Source: a phage. From it: a stretch of 64,000 bases of DNA. The DNA is taken from the sequence record PZ386973.1, one strand, 5' to 3'. Position numbers and translations under genes: made by a program. Within the stretch, counting starts at the first letter, position 1; every line of letters starts with the position of its first letter. Shown here piece after piece: positions 38,008-53,464 of this stretch. The notes below the pieces were generated by a model. That model searched no databases. It worked only from the letters and a program-made list of their open reading frames with translations, and was not told the origin of the DNA.

Positions 38008-38016
38008 GGAGACTAT

Positions 38017-38823: not shown

Positions 38824-38853
38824 AGTCATATAAATTGATGAAGGAGTTAACTA

Positions 38854-39129: not shown

Positions 39130-39136
39130 CTAATAC

Positions 39137-39177: not shown

Positions 39178-39257
39178 CTAAAACTTGATATAATAGTTAT
39201 CTAATTTGGAAACATATTTAAAAGTGTTTAAACAAGTATTTGAATGCTTCTAAATAT

Positions 39258-39345
39258 GGGCGTTTATTCCGTAAGTGGTAGCGGAGGGGATTGTAAATCC
39301 CTGGTCATTGCGACTCGAGTGGTTCGACTCCATTAACGCCCACCA
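39258..39345 (+). tRNA. tRNA-Tyr (anticodon GTA), long variable arm
   Basis: Acceptor GGGCGTT/AACGCCC, anticodon stem-loop GGGGA-TTGTAAA-TCCCT, encoded CCA. Confidence 0.65.
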
Positions 39346-39353
39346 AATTTAAT

Positions 39354-39428
39354 GCACCTATCGTCTAATGGCTAGGACATCAGGATTTCAATCTGAGAAT
39401 CGGAGTTCAATTCTCCGTGGGTGTACCA
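39354..39428 (+). tRNA. tRNA-Glu (anticodon TTC)
   Basis: Acceptor GCACCTA/TGGGTGT, anticodon stem-loop TCAGG-ATTTCAA-TCTGA, T-arm CGGAG-TTCAATT-CTCCG. Confidence 0.55.
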
Positions 39429-39435
39429 ATTTCTG

Positions 39436-39513
39436 CATTCCTAGAGTGTTACTGGACAGCATGTCGGTCTCCAAAACCGTACGGTCTAGGTTCGAGTCCT
39501 AGTGGGTTTGCCA
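39436..39513 (+). tRNA. tRNA-like element with Trp-type anticodon arm (CCA); acceptor stem not resolved
   Basis: Anticodon arm TCGGT-CTCCAAA-ACCGT and T-arm CTAGG-TTCGAGT-CCTAG present; 5' acceptor pairing not found by eye. Confidence 0.35.
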
Positions 39514-39519
39514 AAATTT

Positions 39520-39594
39520 GCACCTTTAGCTGAGATGGATTAGCGCTTGCCTGAAGAGCTTGAGAGGTTCGTTCGATTCGAACAGGGTGCACCA
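39520..39594 (+). tRNA. tRNA-Phe (anticodon GAA), read by eye
   Basis: Acceptor GCACCTT/AGGGTGC, T-arm GTTCG-TTCGATT-CGAAC, anticodon loop CTGAAGA; anticodon stem has two mismatches. Confidence 0.5.
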
Positions 39595-39611
39595 ATTTGA
39601 AGGAGATGCTG

Positions 39612-39884
39612 ATGCATCCTGAAAACTTCTTTATTTACTGCGCGGATAAGTCGCTGAAACGTAGAATTAACAAAGTCTATCATTATCGTGCTAGTCAACA
39701 GCCTTATATATACGCTTTTGACGGTGATCACATTCCACTAGAACAATTATCCTGTGATTACATGATATTGAAGAACTTTGACGAGACAAAGATCTCAAGC
39801 GTTCATAATCGACAGAATCCATTAACGTGGAAATATAAGAAGAAAAAGAAAGGCATCAAATTCTTAAAAAATGTAGTTGCTTAG
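39612..39884 (+). CDS. hypothetical protein
   Basis: Start at the ATG behind a GAAGGAG ribosome-binding site; track start 39597 is TTG. Confidence 0.4.
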   Translation: MHPENFFIYCADKSLKRRINKVYHYRASQQPYIYAFDGDHIPLEQLSCDYMILKNFDETKISSVHNRQNPLTWKYKKKKKGIKFLKNVVA

Positions 39885-39905
39885 TTTCCAAAAGTTCTGT
39901 ATAAT
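39877..39905 (+). promoter_or_regulatory. sigma70-type promoter upstream of tRNA genes
   Basis: TTGCTT-17 nt-TATAAT. Confidence 0.5.
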
Positions 39906-39953
39906 AATTACATAAATTGAACTGGAGAAGCAACATGACAGAACAAGATAAAT

Positions 39954-40029
39954 CGACCGTTGGCTGAATGGCTTAGGCGAAGGATTGCAAATCCTTTTTA
40001 TGTGAGTTCAAATCTCATGCGGTCGTCCA
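39954..40029 (+). tRNA. tRNA-Cys (anticodon GCA)
   Basis: Acceptor CGACCGT/GCGGTCG, anticodon stem-loop AAGGA-TTGCAAA-TCCTT, T-arm GTGAG-TTCAAAT-CTCAT. Confidence 0.65.
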
Positions 40030-40181
40030 ATTTGCTGAAAGAATTGTTAAATCAATTCAGGCACGCGTAGGAACACTGTCTCCGTAATTGAAAGATGAGA
40101 CACGGTTTGGAGAGGTATGCCGCTACACGCTACGGTGCTAACTCCGTCTAGGTGAAAATCCTAGTCAGCAATATAAATTTA

Positions 40182-40264
40182 GGGTCGTTAGCCAAGCGGT
40201 TTGGCGGTGGACTGTTAATCCATGTCGAAAGACAACGTAGGTTCGAATCCTACACGGCCCGCCA
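40182..40264 (+). tRNA. tRNA with long variable arm; anticodon read as GTT, identity uncertain
   Basis: Acceptor GGGTCGT/ACGGCCC, T-arm GTAGG-TTCGAAT-CCTAC, variable stem-loop GTC-GAAA-GAC. Confidence 0.5.
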
Positions 40265-40366
40265 AATTCTGTGTAGAGTTAAGTAAACCGGTAGCCAACC
40301 AGCTATCATTGCTGACATCGAATTCAGCCACAGATACCATTTTCATTAATAACTGAGGAAACAAGC

Positions 40367-40552
40367 ATGTCCAAGAATGTAATTGCGCAGCTAGAAGTTC
40401 ATCGTGATAGCACTATCAATAATATTGAAGTTGAGAAGAAATACATCGAAGAACTTAAACATGATATACTAGTAAGTCTCAACCGTCTTAATGTACGAAA
40501 AGAGTTTCTTAAAGAACTTAATGCAGCTATTGAAAAACTCAAAGCTGAGTAA
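40367..40552 (+). CDS. hypothetical small coiled-coil protein
   Basis: 61-aa ORF with a GAGGAAACAAGC ribosome-binding site. Confidence 0.35.
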   Translation: MSKNVIAQLEVHRDSTINNIEVEKKYIEELKHDILVSLNRLNVRKEFLKELNAAIEKLKAE

Positions 40553-40561
40553 ATAAATTAT

Positions 40562-40638
40562 GCGACCGGGGCTGGCTTGGTAATGGTACTCCCCTGTCAC
40601 GGGAGAGAATGTGGGTTCAAATCCCATCGGTCGCGCCA
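40562..40638 (+). tRNA. tRNA-Asp (anticodon GTC)
   Basis: Perfect acceptor GCGACCG/CGGTCGC, anticodon stem-loop CTCCC-CTGTCAC-GGGAG. Confidence 0.7.
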
Positions 40639-40655
40639 AATAAGGTAGGTTAGCT

Positions 40656-40808
40656 ATGGAACGTAGGGAGTTTACTCCAGAAGAGATAGAGCAGATAAAA
40701 GAATCTGCTATGAAAAATGCTAGAATATCTCTGTCACTGGAAGGTATCATTATTAGTGACGTAAACTTTGAAAAAATCAAAGCCATAGCTGATGAACTGG
40801 AAAAAGTA
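40656..40808 (+). CDS. hypothetical 50-aa protein with S-x3-E-G motif
   Basis: ATG behind an AAGGTAGG ribosome-binding site; sequence RISLSLEG fits the [S/T]xxxE[G/N] motif of FicA/VbhA-type Fic inhibitors. Confidence 0.3.
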
Positions 40809-40814
40809 ATTTAA

Positions 40815-40890
40815 TACATCCATAGCTCAATGGTTAGAGCTACCGCCTCTTAAGCGGAGGGTTCTAGGTTCAAGTCCTAGTGGGTGTACC
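40815..40890 (+). tRNA. tRNA-Lys (anticodon CTT), read by eye
   Basis: Acceptor ACATCCA/TGGGTGT, D-arm GCTCAATGGTTAGAGC, anticodon loop CTCTTAA, T-arm CTAGG-TTCAAGT-CCTAG. Confidence 0.55.
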
Positions 40891-40917
40891 AAATTAAACT
40901 AGCACGAGAAATATGCT

Positions 40918-41265
40918 ATGATTAATGCTAAAGAAGAGTTGTTACTTGCCCTAAAGAATACTAAGTCTGAAGTTAAGTGTATTAAGATAGAATTCGGTTA
41001 TTATGGGGATAAAGAAGTTTGGGTATTACCCGTAGGTTATACAGAAAAAGATATTGAAGATTTTCTAGATAATCTAGACTTTAAATATGATTCTGGTTTC
41101 GGCGGACAACTGCTTTATGGTAACGTATGGTTTACTGATGGAACTTGGTTAGAACGTGGTGAATATGATGGTTCTGAATGGTGGGAATATAAGACTACAC
41201 CAGCAATCCCAGAAGAATGCCGAACAATTAATGGTGAAGTAGATCGTACTTTACTATTAAATTAA
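40918..41265 (+). CDS. hypothetical protein
   Basis: 115-aa ORF. Confidence 0.45.
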   Translation: MINAKEELLLALKNTKSEVKCIKIEFGYYGDKEVWVLPVGYTEKDIEDFLDNLDFKYDSGFGGQLLYGNVWFTDGTWLERGEYDGSEWWEYKTTPAIPEECRTINGEVDRTLLLN

Positions 41266-41657
41266 CAAAATTTCAGTGCAGAACACGGAGCTAGCAATTC
41301 GGAAGTGCTGACTCATGATAAGCTGCCTATGTACTTGCGAAGCGGTCGTGTCCAAGACTCGGACTCTTGCACTGAAAACAATCAAACATTCTAGCGTGGT
41401 TGATGGGGAAACCAGCTTGGCTAGGGCAGAAGCTCGTTCGATTCGAGTGGAAGAATGGTTCTCGTAAGTCCGCACAAGTGATAACAGGTTCGAGTCCTGT
41501 CTAGAATGACACTATAAAGTTTACTTATTGAGTAGGTTCCGATAGATCGGCGGGTCTATTCTGGCATTTAAGAGAGGTCTCGCAAACTTCTTTGTCAGCC
41601 GTGGGGTTCATAGCCTCCAGGTGGCCTACACAATAAGTAAATTTATTAAAAATTCAT

Positions 41658-41686
41658 TTGCTATTCTGCTTAATTATCTGTATAAT
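41658..41686 (+). promoter_or_regulatory. sigma70-type promoter
   Basis: TTGCTA-17 nt-TATAAT. Confidence 0.5.
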
Positions 41687-41718
41687 ATATTTTATAAAGT
41701 GAAGAGAAGGAAAGCAAA

Positions 41719-41877
41719 ATGAAACACAAGATAGCTCAAGTTTTTATGGCATTATGGTGTATGCCAATAGCTATAACAGCATTTAATCTAGATACTCTTA
41801 CTATAGAAGAAAAATGTATCGGATTAGTTAGCGGCTTTAGTATGCTGGGCTTATCTTTGCTGTGGTTAAAGAAATAA
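41719..41877 (+). CDS. hypothetical small membrane peptide
   Basis: 52-codon ORF with a GGAAAG ribosome-binding site; two hydrophobic segments. Confidence 0.3.
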   Translation: MKHKIAQVFMALWCMPIAITAFNLDTLTIEEKCIGLVSGFSMLGLSLLWLKK

Positions 41878-41881
41878 TATT

Positions 41882-41959
41882 CTCCGTGTAGCTCAGTTTG
41901 GCCAGAGCGTTTCGTTTGGGGCGATAGGGTCGGGGGTTCAAATCCTCCCACGGAGACCA
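41882..41959 (+). tRNA. tRNA-Pro (anticodon TGG)
   Basis: Perfect acceptor CTCCGTG/CACGGAG, D-arm GCTCAGTTTGGCCAGAGC, anticodon loop TTTGGGG. Confidence 0.6.
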
Positions 41960-41965
41960 AACAAT

Positions 41966-42043
41966 TGCGGGTTAGATCTCTGGTAGAGATCGCTAGTCTC
42001 ATAAGCTAGAAAGAGGTAGGTTCGATTCCTGCACCCGCTTCCA
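41966..42043 (+). tRNA. tRNA with CAT anticodon (Met or Ile); 1-72 mismatch
   Basis: Acceptor TGCGGGT/ACCCGCT with T-T at 1-72, anticodon stem-loop CTAGT-CTCATAA-GCTAG, T-arm GTAGG-TTCGATT-CCTGC. Confidence 0.5.
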
Positions 42044-42063
42044 TTTTAATAGAGGATTTCGAA

Positions 42064-42231
42064 ATGAAAGTATTTCGATTAGTAGTAAGTGATAAACGTT
42101 TAGGTAAGAATACATCAAAATCCTTACTCGCTCATTACGGTAAAAATTGGGATGAAGTAATGGTAGAGTTTAGTACTAATCACCCTTACCTGAAAGTTCA
42201 CTCTATTAAAGAAGTATACAATGGTTACTAA
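42064..42231 (+). CDS. hypothetical small protein
   Basis: 55-codon ORF with an AGAGGA ribosome-binding site between two tRNAs. Confidence 0.3.
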   Translation: MKVFRLVVSDKRLGKNTSKSLLAHYGKNWDEVMVEFSTNHPYLKVHSIKEVYNGY

Positions 42232-42232
42232 T

Positions 42233-42311
42233 AGATCGCTAGCTCAATAGGTTTAGTAGCATCCGACTTTTAATCGGAAGGTTCTGGGTTCAAGTCCCAG
42301 GCGATCTACCA
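42233..42311 (+). tRNA. tRNA-Lys (anticodon TTT)
   Basis: Perfect acceptor AGATCGC/GCGATCT, anticodon stem-loop TCCGA-CTTTTAA-TCGGA, T-arm CTGGG-TTCAAGT-CCCAG. Confidence 0.7.
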
Positions 42312-42329
42312 ATTTCAAGAAAAACGCAG

Positions 42330-42358
42330 TTGCTTGATGCTTAATTTCTTGTTATAAT
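42330..42358 (+). promoter_or_regulatory. sigma70-type promoter
   Basis: TTGCTT-17 nt-TATAAT. Confidence 0.5.
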
Positions 42359-42596
42359 ATTTATATAAATTGATGAGGATTTCTCCTCATCATAGTTCAC
42401 TAAGGTATTAGCTCGACCTAGGACTGGCTGCCAAAAAGCACGATCCCTACGATTCGGGAGAAGTTCTAGATTAGTCCACTAGATTCAGCGGCAACTGAAT
42501 AGTGTATCGGGTTTGCGAGATGACGTAGTTCCTTCCGCTCGAAGCGAAGGTGCTGTAGTTACGCCGAGCTAATAGCCTTAGTAAATTAAAGAATTT

Positions 42597-42675
42597 GGGG
42601 GATGGGTCTGCTAGGAGTGGACACCTCGCTTGCACCGAGGACATCAGAACGATTCGAATTCGTTATCCTCCACCA
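42597..42675 (+). tRNA. tRNA-Ala (anticodon TGC)
   Basis: Acceptor GGGGGAT/ATCCTCC, anticodon stem-loop CCTCG-CTTGCAC-CGAGG, T-arm AACGA-TTCGAAT-TCGTT. Confidence 0.6.
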
Positions 42676-42680
42676 AATAC

Positions 42681-42757
42681 GCGTGATTGATGGAATGGGC
42701 ATACATACCGTCCTTAGAAGTCGGGTTTTGAGGGTTCGAATCCCTTGTCACGCACCA
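42681..42757 (+). tRNA. tRNA, anticodon read as TAG, short variable arm
   Basis: Acceptor GCGTGAT/GTCACGC, T-arm GAGGG-TTCGAAT-CCCTT; identity needs software. Confidence 0.5.
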
Positions 42758-42869
42758 AATTTGATGGTCAGAGTAAATTAAACCTACTATCTCGGTTGAG
42801 CTGTTTTAATGGGTTCGAATCCCAGCGAGGCGTAACTGCCTGGCGTGATAGAGGCATCATCTTATTATT

Positions 42870-42960
42870 GGAAGAGCAAATCGAATTGGCGACGAAAACC
42901 GCTTGGAAAGTGGCTGACTGGTAAAACGGCTTGAGAGTTCAAATCTCTTCTCTTCCGCCA
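42870..42960 (+). tRNA. tRNA-Ser (anticodon GGA), long variable arm
   Basis: Perfect acceptor GGAAGAG/CTCTTCC, anticodon loop TTGGAAA, T-arm GAGAG-TTCAAAT-CTCTT. Confidence 0.55.
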
Positions 42961-42972
42961 AACAATTTATAT

Positions 42973-43067
42973 GGTAGGTCAATCCAAAGGCTGGCGCTGG
43001 ACTCCGACTTGAAATCGGTTGATCGTAGTGATACGGTGTAAGGGTTCGATCCCCTTACCTACCTCCA
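42973..43067 (+). tRNA. tRNA-Ser (anticodon TGA), long variable arm
   Basis: Perfect acceptor GGTAGGT/ACCTACC, anticodon loop CTTGAAA, T-arm AAGGG-TTCGATC-CCCTT. Confidence 0.55.
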
Positions 43068-43432
43068 AATCTTGGAATATGCCGGAATTAGTAGACGGGA
43101 CTGCCGAATAGGTTTACTAGGAACATCCACTCCTAGAAATATACCTTAAAGGCGGTTGAGATAAATGGTCTATCTCGTGAAGGTTCAAGTCCTTCTATTC
43201 CTTGATACATCAATGGCTCAAAGTGTAACGGTGCTATTTGATGCTCTTGGAAAGACTTTCCCGACAGGCGTTCGGGGGTAAGCTTCTGAGGCTAGAATAG
43301 AAGAGTTTCTGAGAGCCGCCACAATTGAAAATTCGTACTCGTCTTGAGCTGCGTGCAATAGGAGATAACTTGATTAGTATTCTAGAACATGCTAATTGAG
43401 GATGGTTTCGCTAACCCTGCGAGTTTTCAATT

Positions 43433-43509
43433 GTGGCTATATCATAATTGGTTAATGATCCTGATTGTGAATCAGGCCTATGTGGATTCGAATTCCACTA
43501 GCCACCCCA
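43433..43509 (+). tRNA. tRNA-His (anticodon GTG)
   Basis: Perfect acceptor GTGGCTA/TAGCCAC, anticodon stem-loop CCTGA-TTGTGAA-TCAGG, T-arm GTGGA-TTCGAAT-TCCAC. Confidence 0.7.
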
Positions 43510-43534
43510 AATTAACTTAAATAGGAAATAAAAT

Positions 43535-43732
43535 ATGGCTGATTTCTGCAAACAATGCTCTATTGATATGTGGGGCAGAGATACTGGTGATCTTTCTGGT
43601 TTGATTACAGAAGCCGAAGTTAAAGAAGGTTATGGTGCAGTTGTGATTTGCGAAGGATGCGGAGTTATTCGAGTGGATCATGAAGGCAAACGTTTAGAAG
43701 AGCAGGAAAATTTAGGAGAAACAAATGAGTAA
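43535..43732 (+). CDS. small zinc-ribbon-like protein
   Basis: 65 aa with CKQC...CEGCG pairs. Confidence 0.4.
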   Translation: MADFCKQCSIDMWGRDTGDLSGLITEAEVKEGYGAVVICEGCGVIRVDHEGKRLEEQENLGETNE

Positions 43733-43961
43733 TGCCTTAATTAGTGAAATTATGTTAACACGTCTTGCAGAATTACAAACTCTTCGAGATGAATCTCAGA
43801 ATAACTTAGCCTACCATAAACAGATGGTAGATACTCTTACTACTCGTATTGAAACTTACGAGCGCGATATTGCAGCATTACAAGCCCTTTTCTCTGTGTC
43901 AGCACCCGATACGTTAGAACAGCCTCCTGTGTCTCAGCCGGTAGAAACAGCATCTAGTTAA
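43725..43961 (+). CDS. hypothetical small coiled-coil protein
   Basis: 78-aa ORF overlapping the previous stop. Confidence 0.35.
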   Translation: MSNALISEIMLTRLAELQTLRDESQNNLAYHKQMVDTLTTRIETYERDIAALQALFSVSAPDTLEQPPVSQPVETASS

Positions 43962-43970
43962 TAGCATTCT

Positions 43971-44046
43971 TGGAGTGTAGATCAATTGGCAGATCGTCGG
44001 CCTCTGACTCCGAAGGTTCCTGGTTCGATCCCAGGCACTCCAGCCA
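43971..44046 (+). tRNA. tRNA-Gln (anticodon CTG)
   Basis: Perfect acceptor TGGAGTG/CACTCCA, anticodon loop CTCTGAC, T-arm CCTGG-TTCGATC-CCAGG. Confidence 0.6.
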
Positions 44047-44052
44047 AACAAT

Positions 44053-44128
44053 TGGAGAGTAGTGTAACGGTTAGCACAACGGCCTTTGACTCCGTTAATG
44101 GTAGGTTCGATTCCTCCTTCTCCAGCCA
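44053..44128 (+). tRNA. tRNA-Gln (anticodon TTG)
   Basis: Acceptor TGGAGAG/TTCTCCA, anticodon loop CTTTGAC, T-loop TTCGATT. Confidence 0.55.
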
Positions 44129-44136
44129 AATAATAG

Positions 44137-44212
44137 GCGGTTAAGCACACGGGTTGTGTCGCAGGCCTTCCAAGCCTCGCTGAGTAGGGTTCGATTCCCT
44201 CTAGCCGCTCCA
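44137..44212 (+). tRNA. tRNA-Gly (anticodon TCC)
   Basis: Acceptor GCGGTTA/TAGCCGC, anticodon loop CTTCCAA, T-arm TAGGG-TTCGATT-CCCTC. Confidence 0.55.
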
Positions 44213-44228
44213 ACTTTAAGGAAACGTT

Positions 44229-44480
44229 ATGCACGTTTTTGAGTTTCGTAATAAAAGTACCGATAAACGAGTTATTGTTATTGGAGAAACATACCGAGCA
44301 TACGAACAAACTGACGGCTCTGTTATCCTGAATGATGAGAAAGGAGGTTTTAGCTTTTATCCAGAAGAACCTTATGAAGAGTTTCGAAAACAATTTAACC
44401 TAGACTGGAGAAAGCATTTAAACACTGTTGCTTCATCTGTAGTATTGCCAACTACCAGTACTGTACCCCCTAATGGCTGA
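44229..44480 (+). CDS. hypothetical protein
   Basis: 83-aa ORF with an AAGGAAACG ribosome-binding site. Confidence 0.4.
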   Translation: MHVFEFRNKSTDKRVIVIGETYRAYEQTDGSVILNDEKGGFSFYPEEPYEEFRKQFNLDWRKHLNTVASSVVLPTTSTVPPNG

Positions 44481-44637
44481 CAACCTAAAAGTAAAGATCG
44501 ATAAACAAAAGAAACGTGTAGAAGTAGAGATTGGTGAAGAACGTGTAGCCTTCACCTTTGAATTTCTTCAGCAGTTGGCAATGACAGTTATGACTGATAA
44601 GTCTCCTGTTATTGAAAAAGAAATCCCGTTGAAATAA
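44473..44637 (+). CDS. hypothetical small protein
   Basis: 54-codon ORF overlapping the previous stop (ATGGCTGA). Confidence 0.3.
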   Translation: MADNLKVKIDKQKKRVEVEIGEERVAFTFEFLQQLAMTVMTDKSPVIEKEIPLK

Positions 44638-44645
44638 CGGGTTTT

Positions 44646-44720
44646 GCTCCTAAAGCATTGCTGGCGATGCAGTTGCCTTGTAAGCATCTGAACCGGGTTC
44701 GATTCCTGGTGGGAGCACCA
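44646..44720 (+). tRNA. tRNA-Thr (anticodon TGT)
   Basis: Acceptor GCTCCTA/TGGGAGC, D-arm GCAT...ATGC, anticodon loop CTTGTAA, T-arm CCGGG-TTCGATT-CCTGG. Confidence 0.6.
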
Positions 44721-44735
44721 AATTTAAAAATTCAT

Positions 44736-44764
44736 TTGCCTTCTCTCTTATTTATTGTTATAAT
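44736..44764 (+). promoter_or_regulatory. sigma70-type promoter
   Basis: TTGCCT-17 nt-TATAAT. Confidence 0.5.
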
Positions 44765-44794
44765 ATTTATATAAATTAATGAGAGGGAAACCAA

Positions 44795-45088
44795 ATGAAA
44801 CGTTATCTTTCTGTATTATTCCAAGCTGGTGGTCAACGCTATACTTACGAATTTCCTAGCTCTTGGAAAATAAAAGAAGGTGATCAAGTAGTAGTGTTAA
44901 CACCACGTGAAGGGTATAAAGTAGTAACGGTTAAACAAGTATTTCCAAAAGATCATGAACCGGCTAAAGGCATTCGCTATAAGATGATTCATGGTGTGGT
45001 TCGTCAAGTACCACGAGCGGAAGTAGAAATCAGAGTAGATAAAGATGGTAAACTTAAGTATACTTCTTGCTTAGATGAGTTACTATAA
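44795..45088 (+). CDS. hypothetical protein
   Basis: 97-aa ORF. Confidence 0.45.
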   Translation: MKRYLSVLFQAGGQRYTYEFPSSWKIKEGDQVVVLTPREGYKVVTVKQVFPKDHEPAKGIRYKMIHGVVRQVPRAEVEIRVDKDGKLKYTSCLDELL

Positions 45089-45294
45089 TGAGGATTACTT
45101 TCACAGAAAAGATCATGAGTAATGGTGTTATGATCATTACCGCATGGGATGGTAATCAGTGGTGTAGTGTTTCAGGTATTAAGCCCGAAGAACAAACACT
45201 AGAAAATATCTCAAAGATTAAGCGAAGAATGGCAGAACGTGCACGACTTCCAGGTGCGCCTAGAAATGGTAAACGTTCTGCAATTAAATGTTAA
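45088..45294 (+). CDS. hypothetical small protein
   Basis: 68-aa ORF, coupled start (TAATG). Confidence 0.35.
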   Translation: MRITFTEKIMSNGVMIITAWDGNQWCSVSGIKPEEQTLENISKIKRRMAERARLPGAPRNGKRSAIKC

Positions 45295-45295
45295 T

Positions 45296-45372
45296 GCTTC
45301 GGTAGCTTAGCGATCTAAAGCACTCGGCTGATAACCGAGAGATCGGGGGTTTAAATCCCTCCCGGAGTACCA
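45296..45372 (+). tRNA. tRNA-Ile (anticodon GAT)
   Basis: Acceptor GCTTCGG/CCGGAGT, anticodon stem-loop CTCGG-CTGATAA-CCGAG. Confidence 0.6.
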
Positions 45373-45468
45373 AATTTAGGAATTAAGACTATGCGTCCAG
45401 GAAAGTTTAAAAAAGCTAATTGGTCTAAAGAGTATAAAGAATACTTACTTAGTCTAATAAAACATAAT

Positions 45469-45544
45469 AGTTAGTTGGCAGAGTGGTTATGCACCTCCTT
45501 CATACGGAGCGACTACAGTGGTTCAAATCCACTACTAACTACCA
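45469..45544 (+). tRNA. tRNA with CAT anticodon (Met or Ile)
   Basis: Perfect acceptor AGTTAGT/ACTAACT, T-arm AGTGG-TTCAAAT-CCACT, anticodon loop TTCATAC. Confidence 0.55.
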
Positions 45545-47854: not shown

Positions 47855-48104
47855 GGATGTTCTAACATTCCTACGTAGTGAGAATACCCAGTTTTGGCAT
47901 GACTATATTCAGGAAAATAAAAATAATCCAGATGTAGTTGCTTTTGCCAAAAAACGTATTGGTGAATATAAAGATCCAGAGATTAAAGATGGGATGATTA
48001 CCATGCAATTATGGATAGCTATGAAAACCTTTGGACCCACTATGAGTCTAGGATTTACTCCACTGTTTACTAATATTCTAGTTAATGAAAAGGATCTGAA
48101 ATGA
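47808..48104 (+). CDS. hypothetical protein
   Basis: 98-aa ORF. Confidence 0.35.
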   Translation: MKRLNINSTVQIPATKDVLTFLRSENTQFWHDYIQENKNNPDVVAFAKKRIGEYKDPEIKDGMITMQLWIAMKTFGPTMSLGFTPLFTNILVNEKDLK

Positions 48105-48385
48105 TTATCTCTCCATTTGCTCTTTGGTTCGTCATTGGATCTGTGGTTGCTATTTACAGCTTGATTGATGATCTGTATATTTCTAAGAATAAAGATGTAA
48201 TATTATACGTTATACATAAAACTCGACCGTTAGATCTGCCACCTCTTGATGATAAAACATTACTCAGATGTGCTAGATCTATGATATTTATTGTGGATAT
48301 TCTTCTAGGCCCAACATCTGTGTTTTTCTTTTATAGAAAAACTCGTAATATGAAAAAATTTAAAGCTGAAATGCAGAATACCTAA
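48101..48385 (+). CDS. hypothetical membrane protein
   Basis: 94 aa with an N-terminal hydrophobic helix. Confidence 0.4.
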   Translation: MIISPFALWFVIGSVVAIYSLIDDLYISKNKDVILYVIHKTRPLDLPPLDDKTLLRCARSMIFIVDILLGPTSVFFFYRKTRNMKKFKAEMQNT

Positions 48386-48459: not shown

Positions 48460-48840
48460 GTGGTGAGGTGGCTGCTAGCCCTAACTGGAGATAATATGAC
48501 TATATTACTAATTCTTGTTACAACTTGGTTTTTAATTGGTGCTGGATATGCGATAGCTATTATTAGACATTTGGACGAATACTCTGCTGAATGGTTTGTT
48601 AAGTATCTACGTATTGATGATCAAGAGCAGAAGTTTAAAGATGAAAAGCAGAAAAAAGCAGTAAATAATATGACAGCCAAAGAATGCTTGTTCTACATGC
48701 GTATTGTAGGGTTCTTTGGACTATTAGTTGCTGGCCCAATTGGTTCTACCATTGCCCCATATAAAGAAACAGTTGCTGACATCAAATTGTGGAGAAATGC
48801 AGGGGTACTACGCAAAGCTAGAGAAACTAATATTACATAA
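48460..48840 (+). CDS. hypothetical membrane protein
   Basis: 126 aa with two hydrophobic helices. Confidence 0.4.
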   Translation: MVRWLLALTGDNMTILLILVTTWFLIGAGYAIAIIRHLDEYSAEWFVKYLRIDDQEQKFKDEKQKKAVNNMTAKECLFYMRIVGFFGLLVAGPIGSTIAPYKETVADIKLWRNAGVLRKARETNIT

Positions 48841-48883: not shown

Positions 48884-48919
48884 AAGCCCAGCCTGCACTT
48901 TTGCGACTGGGCTATTTTT
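48884..48919 (+). terminator. rho-independent terminator
   Basis: AGCCCAG...CTGGGCT followed by ATTTTTA. Confidence 0.6.
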
Positions 48920-48934
48920 ATAATAAAATTTTAG

Positions 48935-48994: not shown

Positions 48995-49693
48995 ATGAGG
49001 ATTATTTCTAAGTTCGCCGATGTGTATGATTTGCAGAACAGTTTGTTCGACCCAGATCGTGTGTGGGAACGTAAAACTGAGGAGTTGCTGGTTAAAGTAA
49101 CCGATGACGCAGAAAAGAACATTGTGCATACTCGCCAGGTATTTCGTGATGGTTCGCTATCTTTCCGTGGTGATTTCGAATATTTTGTAAACCCACTATT
49201 TGTTGCAGGTGAGGTTTACTGGTTACACGAGCTGTACTGCTGGCATCCAGCATTTAGCTTCAAAACGTTTAATCTCGACACTATGTTTGATAAAATGGAA
49301 GAGATGGGATTACATGCTCGCTCTTACTTAATGGATAAGAGTCGCGGAGATGTTCGTGAAACAATGCGTGATTTGCTCGCTGAAGCAAAACCTAAAGCAG
49401 AACGTATCTTATCCGAACTGCGTGTACCGATTGCATATGTGAAAGGTATTAAAAAGAACGATAACGATGATGTTCGTAACTTCGTAATTCAGACTAACAT
49501 TCGTTTCCATCAGTCCGGTATTCCGTGGCAGGAAATTGAAAGTAACTTATACCGTTTACACCAAGTTCTCGAACAGTATATCTTCGGTGTACTAGGAACT
49601 GGTGAGCCTGATATGATTAAAGTATCAGATAAAGACAGGTTAGCAGCGCATGGATTTGATACAAAAACTTCTTTCAGGAATATGGCACGGTAA
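48995..49693 (+). CDS. hypothetical protein
   Basis: 232-aa ORF. Confidence 0.45.
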   Translation: MRIISKFADVYDLQNSLFDPDRVWERKTEELLVKVTDDAEKNIVHTRQVFRDGSLSFRGDFEYFVNPLFVAGEVYWLHELYCWHPAFSFKTFNLDTMFDKMEEMGLHARSYLMDKSRGDVRETMRDLLAEAKPKAERILSELRVPIAYVKGIKKNDNDDVRNFVIQTNIRFHQSGIPWQEIESNLYRLHQVLEQYIFGVLGTGEPDMIKVSDKDRLAAHGFDTKTSFRNMAR

Positions 49694-50099
49694 GTGGTAT
49701 ATCCTGGGAGCAGGTCTAGCGATAGGCATCGGATTCGGTGCTTATCACTTAGTAGATAAAGTGGAGACTTTAGCCGGAGATCTTGCGGTAGCTACTAAAA
49801 AGATCTCTTCTCTAGAAACTTCCCTTAATAAGGTGAAAGCTGAGAGCGAACTTCGTGAGACTAGAATGAATCAGTATTTCACAATGAATAATATTTCGCA
49901 AGCAGATCTAGACAAAAAGATTAAGCAGTTAGATAAAGCGCTTAGTCGCCAAGATATTATAGCTGCAAAGCCTGGATTGGTAACATTAATTGCTAAAAAG
50001 CAGAGTAAAGAGTTCGAGGAAAGATTAGCGTGTTTAACTGGAAACTTGGAATACTGCTCGCAGCCGCAATCACAATCACAGGCTGTGCAGAAGAAATAA
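49650..50099 (+). CDS. membrane-anchored coiled-coil protein, i-spanin candidate
   Basis: N-terminal transmembrane helix (WYILGAGLAIGIGFGAY) then a long helical region; overlaps the downstream lipoprotein ORF. Confidence 0.4.
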   Translation: MDLIQKLLSGIWHGKWYILGAGLAIGIGFGAYHLVDKVETLAGDLAVATKKISSLETSLNKVKAESELRETRMNQYFTMNNISQADLDKKIKQLDKALSRQDIIAAKPGLVTLIAKKQSKEFEERLACLTGNLEYCSQPQSQSQAVQKK

Positions 50100-50383
50100 A
50101 ACCAGAGCCATCTCATGAGTTAAAGCAAGCTCATGTAGACTGGCCTAAAGGACTTCAACCTTGTAGCTTTAACTTTAGGTTTGAAAAGAAATTAGCTACA
50201 AATGGAGAAGATGGCGTAGTAGTTGTTATACCATACAAAGATTGGAATGCAAAAGCAAAATGTGAGGAAGCAGTTTACTCTTACATTTCACGACTGACTG
50301 GTATGGTCTGCTTCTATCGTCAAGATTTACAAGAAAAACGTTGCTTAGTTTACTATCCACCCATTACAAATAGGAAAGATTAA
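50030..50383 (+). CDS. lipoprotein, o-spanin candidate
   Basis: Lipobox-like signal LLAAAITITGC; start embedded in the 3' end of the upstream ORF in a different frame. Confidence 0.4.
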   Translation: MFNWKLGILLAAAITITGCAEEIKPEPSHELKQAHVDWPKGLQPCSFNFRFEKKLATNGEDGVVVVIPYKDWNAKAKCEEAVYSYISRLTGMVCFYRQDLQEKRCLVYYPPITNRKD

Positions 50384-51135
50384 TGTCAGTATTAGTCGGT
50401 TTACATGGTGAAGCTGGTTCGGGAAAAGATACCGTTGCAAAATTAATTATCGATTGGTGTAGTGACACGTATCCAACGTGTTTATCCCGTCGTTACAGTT
50501 TTGCTAAGCCCGTTTATGAACTTGCATCCGTAATCCTCGGTGTAACTCCAGAGTTTCTAGGAGAGCGCAGGGGAAAAGAGATTGATCAATGGTTTACGGT
50601 CACACAATCTCAATTGGAGCGAGCCAGAGATGTGTGGTTTAAGTACGGTATCGATAAGTTTGAAGACTTCTCGTACGTTTGGCCTATTTTTGAGGAAAAA
50701 TATCTTAATCCTCAACAACTTATCTCAGAGAGTAAAGAAGACGGACTTTATAGTTTATTTATTTCTCCGAGAAAAATGTTACAGCTCGTAGGAACAGAGC
50801 TAGGAAGGCAGCTGGTGCATGAACGCATTTGGCTCATAATTCTGGAGCAATCCATCGCTAAAGACGACCCAGACGTCGCCATAATAACAGATGTTAGATT
50901 CCCCAATGAAGGAGAGCTACTCAGAGAAACAAACCATTTAGATATGGATTCTTTGATAGTAAATGTAGTACCCGCTGAGCAGAAGTTCACTATTAAATCA
51001 GATCATCCATCTGAAAGTGGTATTCCTGCAAAATATATTACTCACGAATTAGTTAATAAATTCGATGGTATCAATAACCTTAAACTAGAAGTTTATAACT
51101 TCTGTGACTTAGAGCTAGAACCACTAGTTGGATAA
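50383..51135 (+). CDS. deoxynucleoside monophosphate kinase-like P-loop protein
   Basis: Walker A GLHGEAGSGKDT; 250 aa; coupled start. Confidence 0.6.
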   Translation: MSVLVGLHGEAGSGKDTVAKLIIDWCSDTYPTCLSRRYSFAKPVYELASVILGVTPEFLGERRGKEIDQWFTVTQSQLERARDVWFKYGIDKFEDFSYVWPIFEEKYLNPQQLISESKEDGLYSLFISPRKMLQLVGTELGRQLVHERIWLIILEQSIAKDDPDVAIITDVRFPNEGELLRETNHLDMDSLIVNVVPAEQKFTIKSDHPSESGIPAKYITHELVNKFDGINNLKLEVYNFCDLELEPLVG

Positions 51136-51147
51136 TCAAGGATCGCT

Positions 51148-51747
51148 ATGACTAATAAAAAAGAAGAAAAGACTAACCTGTTTCACTCCATTCGCCAATC
51201 TAACGAGTATACCTTTTTCTTTGATGAAGAGTTAGGCCCGCCGGATGAATACCGTGATTTATCAATGGTACTTATGCAGGCACATGAGGACGACGAAATT
51301 AATCTGATGATTAATGGCCCGGGTGGTTATGTTGATACTGCTGCACAGTTATCTAACTTAATTGCTAATTGCCGTGGAACAGTTATAGGACACCTGATTG
51401 GTCCTAGTGCTTCTGCTTACTGCACAATTTTCCTATCCTGTCATGGATGGGTAGTACATCCACATGCTACGCTAATGGGACACACGTTCTCTGGCGGATT
51501 CTGTGAGAAGGGTCAAGAAATCAAGAAAGCCTATGAATCTTACAACAAGTTCGTAGAAGATATGATGCTAGATGTCTACTATCCGTTCTTCTCAATAGAC
51601 GAAATCGACGAGATGGTAAAAGACAACAAAAATATCTATCTAGATAGCAAAGAAATCCATAAGCGTATTGAAATCTTGGCAAAATATCGATCTGAGCAAT
51701 ATAATAAAGCCCAGTTACCTCAATCAGAGGAGCATAACGAAGAGTAA
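51148..51747 (+). CDS. ClpP-like serine peptidase
   Basis: INGPGG motif resembling ClpP INSPGG, and GPSASAY; 199 aa. Confidence 0.5.
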   Translation: MTNKKEEKTNLFHSIRQSNEYTFFFDEELGPPDEYRDLSMVLMQAHEDDEINLMINGPGGYVDTAAQLSNLIANCRGTVIGHLIGPSASAYCTIFLSCHGWVVHPHATLMGHTFSGGFCEKGQEIKKAYESYNKFVEDMMLDVYYPFFSIDEIDEMVKDNKNIYLDSKEIHKRIEILAKYRSEQYNKAQLPQSEEHNEE

Positions 51748-51757
51748 GTAATTTTAA

Positions 51758-51789
51758 GCCAGGGTTTAACGACCCTGGCTTTTCTTTTA
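51758..51789 (+). terminator. rho-independent terminator
   Basis: GCCAGGGT-TTAACG-ACCCTGGC followed by TTTTCTTTT. Confidence 0.65.
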
Positions 51790-51850
51790 TCTAAAATTCT
51801 TCTTGACAACGACAAAATTTTATGCTCCAGAAGTGATCTTTAAAAACACA

Positions 51851-51879
51851 TTGTAATTTTCCTCCAAAATTAGTATAAT
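51851..51879 (+). promoter_or_regulatory. sigma70-type promoter upstream of lysis genes
   Basis: TTGTAA-17 nt-TATAAT; a TTGACA hexamer lies 45 nt upstream. Confidence 0.45.
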
Positions 51880-51903
51880 GGTACTGGTTAGAGGAGGTTA
51901 CAA

Positions 51904-52560
51904 TTGGAAAAGTTCTTACAATTATTAACGGTACTGCTCCAAGAAGCGAAAGATCCAGCATCGCTTCTTAAACGTCTGCTAACTATCTTAGTTGCTGTCA
52001 TTATTTTCTTATTTGTTAGTAATACTAGCGAGGTGATGTCATTCTTAAAGACTTTCTCCACGTCTGCGGTTCTACAGGATGTTCAAACTCAAAGGATAGA
52101 TAACTTTCCTAATGTAGCTAGAGAAAAGAGCATGGTACTTTTTTCTCAAACGGGTGCGGATGCTGTTTTTGTCGTCAAGTATAAACCAGATGCTATTAAT
52201 GATTATTCTAACATTATTGCATGGGAAAGCAATGCGCAATTAGATAGGGCTGACTTGGCCGATAAAGCGGTAAATAAAACGTCTGAGCTATATAGACGTC
52301 ACTTGGAGGGCTTTAACTACGCATCGGATTTAAGTGTAAAAGTAAATAAATACATGGGGTTAAATATACCTGCGTTTAAGAACGTTACTTTTAATTACAT
52401 ATACACTTGTCCGTATTTCAATCTAAACAATATCTATGCTGGATATATTGGTATTGCTTGGAAAGATAACCCTGTAGATGCAGCCGATTCTGAGAAATTT
52501 AAGGAATATTTAACAAAGCTCTGTTCACCACAACAGAGATCTTTAGGTAGATCAATATGA
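51904..52560 (+). CDS. putative holin
   Basis: 218-aa protein with an N-terminal transmembrane segment directly upstream of the endolysin, 4-bp overlap; TTG start behind an AGAGGAGG ribosome-binding site. Confidence 0.5.
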   Translation: MEKFLQLLTVLLQEAKDPASLLKRLLTILVAVIIFLFVSNTSEVMSFLKTFSTSAVLQDVQTQRIDNFPNVAREKSMVLFSQTGADAVFVVKYKPDAINDYSNIIAWESNAQLDRADLADKAVNKTSELYRRHLEGFNYASDLSVKVNKYMGLNIPAFKNVTFNYIYTCPYFNLNNIYAGYIGIAWKDNPVDAADSEKFKEYLTKLCSPQQRSLGRSI

Positions 52561-52970
52561 GTTTTAAATTTGGTAAAAATAGCGAAAAACAATTAGCTAC
52601 CGTTAAGCCAGAGCTACAAAAAGTAGCTCGTAGAGCTTTAGAATTATCTCCATATGATTTCACGATCGTACAGGGTATTCGTACAGTAGCACAAAGTGCC
52701 CAGAATATTGCTAATGGTACTTCATTTTTAAAAGATCCTAGTAAAAGCAAGCATATTACTGGGGATGCCCTTGATTTTGCTCCATACATTAATGGCAAAA
52801 TTGATTGGAATGATTTAGAAGCATTTTGGGCAGTTAAAAAGGCTTTTGAACAAGCTGGTAAAGAACTGGGCATTAAACTTCGCTTTGGTGCTGATTGGAA
52901 TGCTTCGGGGGATTATCACGATGAAATAAAACGTGGTACCTATGATGGCGGTCATGTCGAACTAGTTTAA
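52557..52970 (+). CDS. endolysin, peptidase M15-like (L-alanyl-D-glutamate peptidase type)
   Basis: 137 aa; zinc-ligand-like H-x6-D (HITGDALD) and C-terminal GGHVE. Confidence 0.75.
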   Translation: MSFKFGKNSEKQLATVKPELQKVARRALELSPYDFTIVQGIRTVAQSAQNIANGTSFLKDPSKSKHITGDALDFAPYINGKIDWNDLEAFWAVKKAFEQAGKELGIKLRFGADWNASGDYHDEIKRGTYDGGHVELV

Positions 52971-52981
52971 TTAATAACTTA

Positions 52982-53004
52982 GGCGGGAATATTCCCGCCT
53001 TTTT
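52982..53004 (+). terminator. rho-independent terminator
   Basis: GGCGGGAAT/ATTCCCGCC hairpin followed by TTTTT. Confidence 0.7.
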
Positions 53005-53047: not shown

Positions 53048-53464
53048 ATGTTTGCAGAACTATTCACTATGATGCTGCTAGGTATCTGGAAAATAAGTCT
53101 AGTAGTATTCATTTTAATGATAGTCTTTACTATCATTGCATTAACTACCCGAAATAGCTTATTAATAAAGGTTATTCACGGACTAGAGTATATAATTATG
53201 GGTTCATTCGGCGTTTGTAAATGCAATTGCCATAGAGATACGAAATATTGTTGGTTATGGATGGAACTAGAGAATCCTATATCCATAGCTTTGGCTGTTT
53301 CATTCGGCATGATTCTTATGGCCCTTACTCTAGCATTAATACCTTTGATGTTAGCTGGGGGAGTTACAGCGTATTTCACCCTTTTCTCCCCGATACTTAT
53401 GTACTCAATTTACCCAATAACTATGTATCTAGTTAGGAAAAGATTTATACATGCAGTAGATTAA
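53048..53464 (+). CDS. hypothetical multi-pass membrane protein
   Basis: 138 aa, at least three hydrophobic helices. Confidence 0.45.
   Translation: MFAELFTMMLLGIWKISLVVFILMIVFTIIALTTRNSLLIKVIHGLEYIIMGSFGVCKCNCHRDTKYCWLWMELENPISIALAVSFGMILMALTLALIPLMLAGGVTAYFTLFSPILMYSIYPITMYLVRKRFIHAVD

What the first reader, a model, noticed from the sequence alone, without database searches (positions are those of the whole stretch)
49650..50383. Candidate two-component spanin: membrane-anchored coiled-coil protein with an embedded lipoprotein gene
ORF 49650-50099 has an N-terminal transmembrane helix followed by a long helical domain. ORF 50030-50383 starts inside its 3' end in another frame and encodes a lipobox-like signal (LLAAAITITGC). 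This overlapping arrangement is the classic Rz/Rz1-type i-spanin/o-spanin layout, here about 1.8 kb upstream of the holin-endolysin pair. The o-spanin candidate is longer than usual, so an unrelated lipoprotein is an alternative.
Basis: inference. Interest (0 to 1): 0.45.

Follow-up and report, generated by a model that had tools for sequence, protein, structure and literature searches.

The report
Phage T5-type overlapped spanin gene pair

Summary
The window is a T5-like phage (Tequintavirus, up to 98.7% DNA identity to sequenced relatives). Both ORFs exist exactly as described. ORF 49650-50099 (149 aa) has an N-terminal transmembrane helix and a helical periplasmic domain. ORF 50030-50383 (117 aa, GTG start) has a lipoprotein signal ending ITG|C.

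They are 93% and 89% identical to T5.045 and T5.044. They match PHROG 739 and PHROG 812 (E 2e-37 and 5.5e-30). T4 PseT.3 and PseT.2 fall in these same two families, and those T4 proteins were shown to complement a lambda Rz/Rz1 defect.

Kongari et al. 2018 already list a "T5 family" of i- and o-spanins with "overlapped" architecture and a 70-bp overlap. The overlap here is exactly 70 nt.

The pair sits in the same place, upstream of the dNMP kinase gene, in all ten Demerecviridae relatives I compared. The lipobox Cys is invariant, and so are the two C-terminal o-spanin cysteines that are essential in T4.

- The layout is overlapped, not embedded.
- The proteins are homologues of T4 PseT.3/PseT.2, not of lambda Rz/Rz1.
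- The o-spanin length is normal for this family.

I found no direct experiment on T5 spanins, so the function rests on homology. Novelty: already known.

The parts
49650..50099 (+). i-spanin gene (149 aa), homologue of T5.045 and T4 PseT.3
   Evidence: ORF list. PHROG 739 'Rz-like spanin', E 2.2e-37. 93% identical to T5.045. 28% identical to T4 PseT.3, E 5e-6, and T4 PseT.3 hits the same PHROG. Annotated i-spanin in OK272480, MZ501058 and OR083247.
49698..49754 (+). N-terminal transmembrane domain of the i-spanin (residues 17-35, YILGAGLAIGIGFGAYHLV)
   Evidence: Highest Kyte-Doolittle 19-mer, 1.55. A hydrophobic N-terminal segment is present in all 12 aligned homologues, with H 1.56-2.75.
49965..49985 (+). 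AAKPGLV motif of the i-spanin (residues 106-112), the most conserved stretch shared with T4 PseT.3
   Evidence: P108 is invariant; K107 and L110 are nearly invariant in 12 sequences including T4 and PM2. Visible in the pairwise alignment.
50031..50057 (+). C-terminal CX7C motif of the i-spanin (Cys128...Cys136). Present in Demerecviridae, absent in T4-likes.
   Evidence: Cys positions. Conserved in all 10 Demerecviridae i-spanins and missing in T4 and PM2.
50016..50020 (+). GAGGA Shine-Dalgarno motif, 9 nt upstream of the o-spanin start
   Evidence: Sequence. Conserved in the 7 aligned Tequintavirus sequences.
50030..50383 (+). o-spanin gene (117 aa precursor, GTG start), homologue of T5.044 and T4 PseT.2
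   Evidence: PHROG 812 'Rz-like spanin', E 5.5e-30. 89% identical to T5.044. 28% identical to T4 PseT.2, E 8e-7, and T4 PseT.2 hits the same PHROG. 556 phage records hold a homologue.
50030..50099 (+). 70-nt dual-coding overlap: the o-spanin signal peptide, lipobox and first four mature residues in one frame, the i-spanin C-terminal tail in the other
   Evidence: Coordinates. Same 70 nt in T5, BF23, Gostya9 and JLBYU40 and as published. Only one variable site in 50047-50089 among 7 phages.
50075..50086 (+). Lipobox I-T-G-C (Cys19 is the lipidated residue; Ala at +2)
   Evidence: Regex match. G18 and C19 invariant in 12 homologues.
50309..50344 (+). Conserved C-terminal cysteine pair of the o-spanin (Cys94, Cys105), aligned with T4 PseT.2 C87 and C98
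   Evidence: Invariant in the alignment. Aligned to T4. Both are essential in T4 according to Kongari 2018.
48901..48929 (+). Promoter-like site upstream of the ORF that precedes the i-spanin; the likely start of the transcription unit that holds the spanin genes
   Evidence: Consensus scan, 9/12. T5 and BF23 records annotate a promoter at the equivalent place. Consensus match only.
51756..51781 (+). Intrinsic terminator-like hairpin that ends the spanin/dnk/protease unit
   Evidence: 11-bp stem with 6 GC pairs, followed by a T-run. An equivalent terminator is annotated in T5 and BF23.
51851..51879 (+). Promoter-like site for the holin-endolysin operon
   Evidence: TTGTAA-17-TATAAT, 10/12. A promoter is annotated at the same place in T5.
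51904..52560 (+). Holin (T4 gpt-type, class III), a functional partner in lysis
   Evidence: Pfam Phage_holin_T, E 8e-114. PHROG 860.
52557..52970 (+). Endolysin (M15 peptidase, T5 Lys type), a functional partner in lysis
   Evidence: PHROG 465 endolysin, E 2e-54. Pfam Peptidase_M15_4, E 1e-4, just below the curated cutoff. Annotated endolysin in relatives.

Best explanation
The two ORFs are the two-component spanin of a T5-like phage.

The 149-aa product is the i-spanin. It is a type II inner-membrane protein, N-in, anchored by one N-terminal transmembrane helix, with a mostly helical periplasmic domain. The 117-aa product is the o-spanin precursor. It would be exported by Sec, lipidated on Cys19, cleaved by signal peptidase II, and carried by Lol to the inner leaflet of the outer membrane, because residue +2 is Ala rather than Asp.

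The C-terminal parts of the two proteins would bind each other across the periplasm, threading the peptidoglycan mesh. Periplasmic cysteines would form disulfide-linked dimers. Once the gpt-type holin (51904-52560) has released the M15 endolysin (52557-52970) and the murein is degraded, the freed complexes would undergo a conformational change that fuses or disrupts the outer membrane and completes lysis.

What is shown here: the gene anatomy, the sequence signals, purifying selection in both frames, and homology to T5.045/T5.044 and to T4 PseT.3/PseT.2. What is inferred from the lambda and T4 work: topology, lipidation, complex formation, the disulfides and the membrane-fusion step.
For: - Origin. 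The region is up to 98.7% identical to Tequintavirus genomes, with 454 matching records.
- Family. PHROG 739 and 812, 'Rz-like spanin', E 2e-37 and 5.5e-30. T4 PseT.3 and PseT.2 hit the same two PHROGs, E 1e-37 and 5e-42.
- Identity. 93% and 89% to T5.045 and T5.044. The T5 RefSeq notes already cite similarity to T4 PseT.2/PseT.3.
- Direct alignment to T4. 28% identity for each protein, E 5e-6 and 8e-7. The AxKPGLV motif and the CxYRQxLxExxC cysteine pair are shared.
- Literature (PMC6139136). The T5 family of i- and o-spanins is 'overlapped', 'T5 spanins overlap by 70 bp'. T4 pseT.3/pseT.2 complement lambda RzamRz1am, and both PseT.2 cysteines are essential.
- Signals. Transmembrane helix, lipobox ITGC, Ala at +2 and a Shine-Dalgarno motif.
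- Conservation. The pair, its order and its position upstream of dnk are kept in ten other Demerecviridae genomes from hosts in 8 genera (Escherichia, Salmonella, Shigella, Klebsiella, Enterobacter, Pectobacterium, Proteus, Citrobacter), with overlaps of 34-88 nt.
- Selection. Third-position excess in both frames and a nearly invariant dual-coding core.
- Secondary structure. Single-sequence models give long helices for the i protein and a beta-alpha-beta pattern for the o protein, matching the published description of the T4 pair.
Against: - Two full-text searches found no experiment on the T5-family proteins themselves, so the function rests on roughly 28%-identity homology to T4 and on sequence signals.
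- The transmembrane helix is Gly-rich and only borderline by hydropathy (1.55).
- The coiled-coil heptad signal is weak (83 of 1000 shuffles).
- Both AlphaFold models are low confidence (pLDDT 64 and 56).
- The genes are not next to the holin-endolysin pair. They sit in a separate upstream transcription unit with dNMP kinase. The same is true of the validated T4 pair.
Confidence: 0.93

Rival explanations
1. The 117-aa ORF is an unrelated lipoprotein that merely overlaps a membrane protein gene, for example a superinfection-exclusion or receptor-blocking lipoprotein like T5 Llp.
For: Its mature length of 99 aa is much longer than lambda Rz1 (own knowledge: 40 aa mature). It lies about 1.5-1.9 kb from the holin-endolysin pair, in a different transcription unit. 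A lipobox by itself occurs about once per 64 kb in shuffles.
Against: It is homologous over its full length to T4 PseT.2, including both essential cysteines. It falls in the same PHROG 812 as PseT.2. It is always paired with the PseT.3 homologue in the same order. It is already classified as an o-spanin. The T4 o-spanin is of similar size (83 aa mature).
Confidence: 0.03
2. The pair is a conserved early-expressed envelope complex whose main job is something other than outer-membrane disruption, such as envelope remodelling or exclusion during infection. On this view the spanin label has simply been carried over from T4.
For: The genes share a predicted transcription unit with dnk, an early metabolic gene. 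It is separated by a terminator and a promoter from the holin-endolysin operon. No experiment on T5 spanins was found.
Against: The T4 homologues are also located away from the t and e genes, yet they work as spanins in a lambda complementation test. Every sequence feature a spanin needs is present. No other spanin candidate was seen: this was the only coding-strand lipoprotein-signal ORF in the 64-kb window.
Confidence: 0.03
3. One or both ORFs are chance open frames, or decayed and non-functional.
For: Several GenBank records leave the o-ORF unannotated. Its start codon here is GTG.
Against: Both frames are intact in every relative examined. Both show a third-position substitution excess. 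Both give HMM E-values of 1e-30 or better. The GTG/ATG polymorphism at the o start is synonymous in the i frame (GCG/GCA Ala127), and a Shine-Dalgarno motif is retained.
Confidence: 0.01

Closest known systems
Phage T5 spanins T5.045 (i-spanin) and T5.044 (o-spanin): the 'T5 family' of Kongari et al. 2018
   Same: 93% and 89% amino-acid identity. The same 70-nt overlap in the same relative frame. The same downstream neighbours: dnk, a Clp-like protease, a terminator and promoter, then holin and endolysin. The same lipobox ITGC and the same six periplasmic cysteines.
   Different: The o-spanin starts with GTG here and ATG in T5. T5 carries the HNH homing endonuclease gene hegF immediately upstream of the i-spanin; this window does not. 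The first ~12 residues of the i-spanin differ accordingly.
Phage T4 PseT.3 / PseT.2 two-component spanin (experimentally validated)
   Same: Homologous: same PHROGs 739 and 812, and 28% identity in both proteins. Shared N-terminal transmembrane helix, helical domain and AxKPGLV motif in the i-spanin. Shared lipobox, HxxWP motif and the C-terminal CxYR...C cysteine pair, essential in T4, in the o-spanin. Both pairs lie away from the holin and endolysin genes. T5-like phages also share the gpt-type holin with T4.
   Different: The T4 genes overlap by only 4 nt (ATGA) and are classed as 'separated', against 70 nt 'overlapped' here. T4 PseT.3 has no cysteine and lacks the C-terminal CX7C tail. T4 PseT.2 lacks the two extra cysteines, Cys45 and Cys78. 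The proteins here are longer: 149 against 117 aa, and 117 against 99 aa.
Phage lambda Rz / Rz1
   Same: The same functional class and the same topological plan: a type II inner-membrane protein with a helical periplasmic domain, an outer-membrane lipoprotein, periplasmic cysteines, and genes that share DNA in different frames.
   Different: No detectable sequence relationship: no Pfam hit at E<=0.1, and a different PHROG. Rz1 is entirely embedded within Rz, whereas here only the first 70 nt of the o gene overlap the i gene. Lambda Rz1 is short, proline-rich and unstructured; this o-spanin is predicted to be a folded beta-alpha-beta domain. The lambda genes lie within the lysis cassette.
Shigella phage SHSML-45 (with Shivani and phiR201): 'separated' members of the T5 family
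   Same: Nearly identical i- and o-spanin periplasmic domains.
   Different: A homing-endonuclease gene of about 700 bp lies between the two genes. The i-spanin tail and the o-spanin N-terminus (MHKIKLG...) are therefore different, and there is no overlap.

Membership tests
Two-component spanin (functional class, as defined by Kongari et al. 2018) | The i-spanin is an integral inner-membrane protein with one N-terminal transmembrane domain and a periplasmic, largely alpha-helical or coiled-coil domain. | tested here: met
   A hydrophobic segment at residues 17-35, preceded by lysines and conserved in 12 homologues. Helices 2-79 and 84-101 in a low-confidence AlphaFold2 model. The coiled-coil heptad signal is weak. 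Actual membrane insertion was not testable.
Two-component spanin (functional class, as defined by Kongari et al. 2018) | The o-spanin carries an outer-membrane lipoprotein signal: signal peptide, lipobox, Cys, and no inner-membrane retention residue at +2. | tested here: met
   MFNWKLGILLAAAITITG|C with Ala at +2. G18 and C19 are invariant in 12 homologues. Lipidation itself is not testable with these tools.
Two-component spanin (functional class, as defined by Kongari et al. 2018) | The i gene is followed directly by the o gene in an embedded, overlapped or separated arrangement. | tested here: met
   Overlapped by 70 nt, with the o frame at +2 relative to the i frame. The order is kept in all relatives.
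Two-component spanin (functional class, as defined by Kongari et al. 2018) | At least one periplasmic cysteine is available for homotypic intermolecular disulfide bonds. | tested here: met
   Two cysteines in the i-spanin (C128, C136) and four in the mature o-spanin (C45, C78, C94, C105). All are conserved in Demerecviridae. Disulfide formation is not testable.
Two-component spanin (functional class, as defined by Kongari et al. 2018) | The two subunits bind each other through their C-termini, and the pair is required for outer-membrane disruption at lysis. | not testable with these tools
   This needs pull-down and genetic experiments. No published test on T5-family proteins was found. It has been shown only for the T4 and lambda pairs.
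T5 spanin family (T5.045 / T5.044) | Sequence membership in both the i- and the o-spanin family of T5. | tested here: met
   93% and 89% identity over the full length.
T5 spanin family (T5.045 / T5.044) | Overlapped architecture with a 70-bp shared region. | tested here: met
   50030-50099 is 70 nt. The published value is 70 bp.
T4 PseT.3 / PseT.2 superfamily (PHROG 739 / PHROG 812) | A profile match of both proteins to the same families as the T4 proteins. | tested here: met
   Window proteins: E 2.2e-37 and 5.5e-30. T4 proteins: E 1.3e-37 and 5e-42 to the same PHROGs.
T4 PseT.3 / PseT.2 superfamily (PHROG 739 / PHROG 812) | The two C-terminal o-spanin cysteines that are essential in T4 (C87, C98). 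| tested here: met
   C94 and C105 align with them and are invariant in 12 sequences. Their essentiality in T4 comes from PMC6139136.
Lambda Rz / Rz1 sequence families (Pfam Phage_lysis / Rz1) | A significant match to the lambda-type Rz and Rz1 profiles. | tested here: not met
   The Pfam-A scan returned only sub-threshold, unrelated hits at E>=0.017 for both proteins. NCBIfam gave nothing relevant.
Lambda Rz / Rz1 sequence families (Pfam Phage_lysis / Rz1) | The o gene is wholly embedded within the i gene. | tested here: not met
   Only 70 of the 354 nt of the o gene lie inside the i gene.

The most novel reading that the evidence does not exclude
Demerecviridae spanins carry four cysteines that the T4 homologues lack: a CX7C motif at the i-spanin C-terminus, plus Cys45 and Cys78 in the o-spanin. 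These always occur together. The most novel reading not excluded is that some of them form a heterotypic disulfide between the i- and o-spanin, covalently locking the periplasm-spanning complex. In both systems studied so far, lambda and T4, only homotypic linkages are described. The more likely alternative is ordinary: an intramolecular C45-C78 bond and homotypic i-i bonds as in lambda Rz.
Probability: 0.08. Interest if true: 0.35.

Novelty: already known. Interest (0 to 1): 0.08.

Why it matters
It matters little beyond getting the annotation right. The pair is the known T5-family spanin, listed in the 2018 spanin census and labelled in RefSeq.

Two practical points remain:
- The o-spanin CDS is missing or called 'hypothetical' in many GenBank records of T5-like phages, including close relatives of this window. 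A GTG start inside another gene is easy for gene callers to miss.
- The searches run here found no direct experiment on T5-type spanins. Their extra cysteines and the overlapped-versus-separated variants created by homing endonucleases would make a tidy system for studying spanin disulfide chemistry and the evolution of gene overlap.

Tried and rejected
- Pfam and NCBIfam scans of both proteins returned only sub-threshold, irrelevant hits, so these libraries give no support for lambda Rz/Rz1 membership or for any other domain.
- A PDB sequence search with the o-spanin found no solved relative (best E 0.78).
- Single-sequence AlphaFold2 models of both proteins had low confidence (pLDDT 64 and 56). 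I used them only for secondary-structure trends. I ran no fold search because the matches would be meaningless.
- A home-made heptad score for coiled-coil propensity was not significant (83 of 1000 shuffles). I therefore call the periplasmic domain helical and leave 'coiled coil' as plausible by analogy with T4 alpha-1.
- I looked for experimental work on T5 spanins in the full-text library and found none. Summer et al. 2007 is not held.
- I did not run the large protein-database searches or metagenome scans. The phage collection, PHROGs and the literature already settle the identity.
- The 'unrelated lipoprotein' and 'chance ORF' readings were considered and rejected on homology and selection evidence.
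Full report
**What the window is.** A megablast of 49000-53000 finds 454 phage records, 420 of them covering at least 80% of the query. The best is 98.7% identical (Salmonella phage MET_P1_100_107). All the close hits are T5-like siphophages of the genus Tequintavirus, family Demerecviridae. Gene order in this stretch matches T5:
- a protein of unknown function at 48995-49693
- the two ORFs of the finding
- dNMP kinase at 50383-51135
- a Clp-like protease at 51148-51747
- a terminator-like hairpin at 51756-51781 and a promoter-like site at 51851-51879
- a gpt-type holin at 51904-52560
- an M15 endolysin at 52557-52970

.

**Checking the observation.** Both ORFs exist at the stated coordinates.

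ORF 49650-50099 encodes 149 aa. Its most hydrophobic segment is residues 17-35, YILGAGLAIGIGFGAYHLV, preceded by K6 and K15. The Kyte-Doolittle mean of 1.55 is borderline because the helix is glycine-rich. An N-terminal hydrophobic segment is present in all 12 homologues aligned, with values up to 2.75. A single-sequence AlphaFold2 model (pLDDT 64, low) makes residues 2-79 and 84-101 helical. My crude heptad score peaks at residues 36-78 but is not significant: 83 of 1000 shuffles reach it.

ORF 50030-50383 starts with GTG, 9 nt after a GAGGA motif. It encodes MFNWKLGILLAAAITITG|CAEE.... This has a basic N-region, a hydrophobic core, the lipobox I-T-G-C, and Ala at +2, which fits sorting to the outer membrane.

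The overlap is 70 nt, and the o frame is +2 relative to the i frame.

A lipobox alone is not rare. A permissive six-frame scan of the 64-kb window finds four loci, against about 0.8 per shuffle. This is the only one on the coding strand. The same scan finds exactly one candidate, the homologue, in each of 15 related loci.

Among seven Tequintavirus sequences, variable sites concentrate at third codon positions in both genes: 50/116 against 19/117 and 9/117 in the i-only part, and 39/94 against 11/93 and 12/94 in the o-only part. The dual-coding core 50047-50089 has a single variable site. Both frames are therefore under purifying selection.

**What it is.** The two proteins match PHROG 739 and PHROG 812, both labelled 'Rz-like spanin' in the lysis category, at E 2.2e-37 and 5.5e-30. 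They are 93% and 89% identical to T5.045 and T5.044. RefSeq names these 'Rz-like spanin', and the original T5 notes already record similarity to the T4 PseT.2/PseT.3 proteins.

Kongari et al. 2018 (PMC6139136) list a T5 family in both the i-spanin and the o-spanin tables: T5, EPS7, Stitch, SPC35, AKFV33, FFH1, DT57C, My1, phiR201 and Shivani. They state that 'the T5 spanins overlap by 70 bp', which is the overlap found here. Several GenBank records annotate the same pair as i-spanin and o-spanin, including JLBYU40, DaisyDussoix, IrmaTschudi, BF23 and Shiner.

**Link to an experimentally validated system.** T4 PseT.3 and PseT.2 hit the same two PHROGs, at E 1.3e-37 and 5e-42. They align directly to the window proteins at 28% identity, with pairwise E 5e-6 and 8e-7.

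In a 12-sequence alignment spanning Demerecviridae and two T4-like phages, the o-spanin invariants are M1, G18, C19 (lipobox), P39, C94, Y96, E102 and C105. C94 and C105 align with T4 PseT.2 C87 and C98. Kongari et al. showed that both of these are essential, and that pseT.3/pseT.2 complement a lambda RzamRz1am lysis defect. The i-spanins share the A-x-K-P-G-L-V motif, with P108 invariant.

The low-confidence model of the o-spanin has strands, then a helix at 72-86, then a beta hairpin. This matches the beta-alpha-beta organisation described for PseT.2.

The mature protein is 99 aa, against 83 for T4. The extra residues lie in the N-terminal linker and in a C-terminal LVYYPPITNRKD tail.

**Conservation of the arrangement.** I examined Tequintavirus relatives (T5, BF23, Gostya9, JLBYU40, FGS009, Sen-E22), Klebsiella Sugarlandvirus phages (SEL21, Shiner), Pectobacterium phages (DU_PP_V, My1), Enterobacter phage KKP_3711 and Proteus phage PL1. 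In every case the i gene is followed by the o gene in the +2 frame, with overlaps of 34, 43, 70 or 88 nt, directly upstream of dnk. In SHSML-45 an endonuclease gene separates the two by 666 nt. This is the 'separated' variant already described for Shivani and phiR201. In T4 and PM2 the overlap is the 4-nt ATGA.

**How it most likely works.** The mechanism is inferred from the lambda and T4 literature summarised in PMC6139136 and from general knowledge of spanins.
1. The i-spanin inserts N-in and C-out into the inner membrane.
2. The o-spanin is lipidated at Cys19, cleaved, and carried by Lol to the outer membrane.
3. Their C-terminal regions associate through the murein mesh.
4. Disulfide-linked dimers form.
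5. After the holin and endolysin have destroyed the cell wall, the complexes are free to drive inner- and outer-membrane fusion or disruption.

The sequence signals and the homology are shown here. Every biochemical step is inferred. Two full-text searches found no direct experiment on T5-family spanins.

**How it differs from its relatives.**
- Against T5: the o start codon is GTG rather than ATG. The polymorphic base is the third position of Ala127 (GCG/GCA) in the i frame, so the change is silent there. T5's hegF homing endonuclease gene, immediately upstream of the i-spanin, is absent, and the i-spanin's first dozen residues differ.
- Against T4: the i-spanin has a C-terminal extension bearing a conserved C-x-x-G-x-x-x-x-C motif, and the o-spanin has two further conserved cysteines (C45, C78). 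All four are present in all ten Demerecviridae sequences and absent from both T4-like ones.
- Against lambda: no sequence relationship is detectable, and the architecture is overlapped rather than embedded.

**Transcription context.** The spanin genes share a predicted unit with the upstream unknown ORF, dnk and the protease gene. This unit is bounded by a promoter-like site at 48901-48929 and a strong hairpin terminator at 51756-51781. The holin-endolysin pair has its own promoter-like site. The T5 and BF23 records annotate equivalent signals. As in T4, the spanin genes are therefore not part of the holin-endolysin operon.

**Verdict.** The feature is the known T5-family two-component spanin, a homologue of T4 PseT.3/PseT.2. 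It is already known, and interest is low. The only mildly open points are the lack of direct experiments on this family and the role of the four Demerecviridae-specific cysteines.

Noticed in passing
window 50030-50032; L003 (MT311645), L016 (NC_047979), L011 (NC_031022): The o-spanin start is GTG here, and also in FGS009 and Sen-E22, but ATG in T5, JLBYU40, BF23 and Gostya9. The o-spanin CDS is simply absent from several GenBank and RefSeq annotations of close relatives, and it is 'hypothetical' or 'none' in many tblastn hits. This is a systematic annotation gap for the overlapped gene.
   Followed up: partly
window 49650-49693, compared with L004 (T5) 3246-3743: T5 has the HNH homing endonuclease gene hegF (F-TflVI) between the T5.047 homologue and the i-spanin. 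This window lacks it. Instead, the upstream ORF 48995-49693 overlaps the i-spanin start by 44 nt. The i-spanin N-terminus (first ~12 aa) differs between phages exactly at this junction.
   Followed up: partly
L011 (Shigella phage SHSML-45) 1115-1813: An endonuclease gene of about 700 bp lies between the i- and o-spanin genes. It converts the overlapped layout to a separated one and replaces both the i-spanin tail and the first residues of the o-spanin signal peptide. The same kind of event was published for Shivani and phiR201. The o-spanin is unannotated in this record.
   Followed up: partly
window 50031-50057 (i-spanin C128, C136) and 50162-50164, 50261-50263 (o-spanin C45, C78): Four cysteines are conserved in all ten Demerecviridae spanin pairs and absent from the T4-like homologues. 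They always occur together. Their disulfide partners are unknown.
   Followed up: partly
window 50561-50573 (inside dnk): The sequence at T5's annotated major single-strand interruption (nick) site, GAGA|GCGCAGGGG, is conserved here at the equivalent position of the dNMP kinase gene. GCGC is under-represented in the window: 53 observed against about 95 expected from base composition.
   Followed up: partly
window 48995-49693: This 232-aa ORF immediately upstream of the i-spanin is annotated 'DNA polymerase III subunit epsilon' in some records (JLBYU40, DU_PP_V). It has no Pfam hit here and belongs to the unknown-function PHROG 4243, so that name looks unsupported.
   Followed up: partly
window 51148-51747: A ClpP-like protease gene (Pfam CLP_protease E 1e-7; PHROG 1827) lies between the spanin/dnk genes and the holin. 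It is conserved across Demerecviridae, and its role is unclear.
   Followed up: no
window 53048-53464: A 138-aa ORF with several hydrophobic segments sits directly downstream of the endolysin. It is annotated 'putative membrane protein' in JLBYU40 (PHROG 5944, unknown). Its position next to the lysis genes could hint at a lysis-regulatory role.
   Followed up: no
window 34014-45544: A cluster of 22 tRNA genes, all on the + strand, typical of the T5 tRNA region.
   Followed up: no
window 48101-48385 and 48460-48840: Two small ORFs with predicted transmembrane segments lie upstream of the spanin unit. They are the T5.049 and T5.048 homologues, annotated 'contains two transmembrane domains'. Function unknown.
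   Followed up: no
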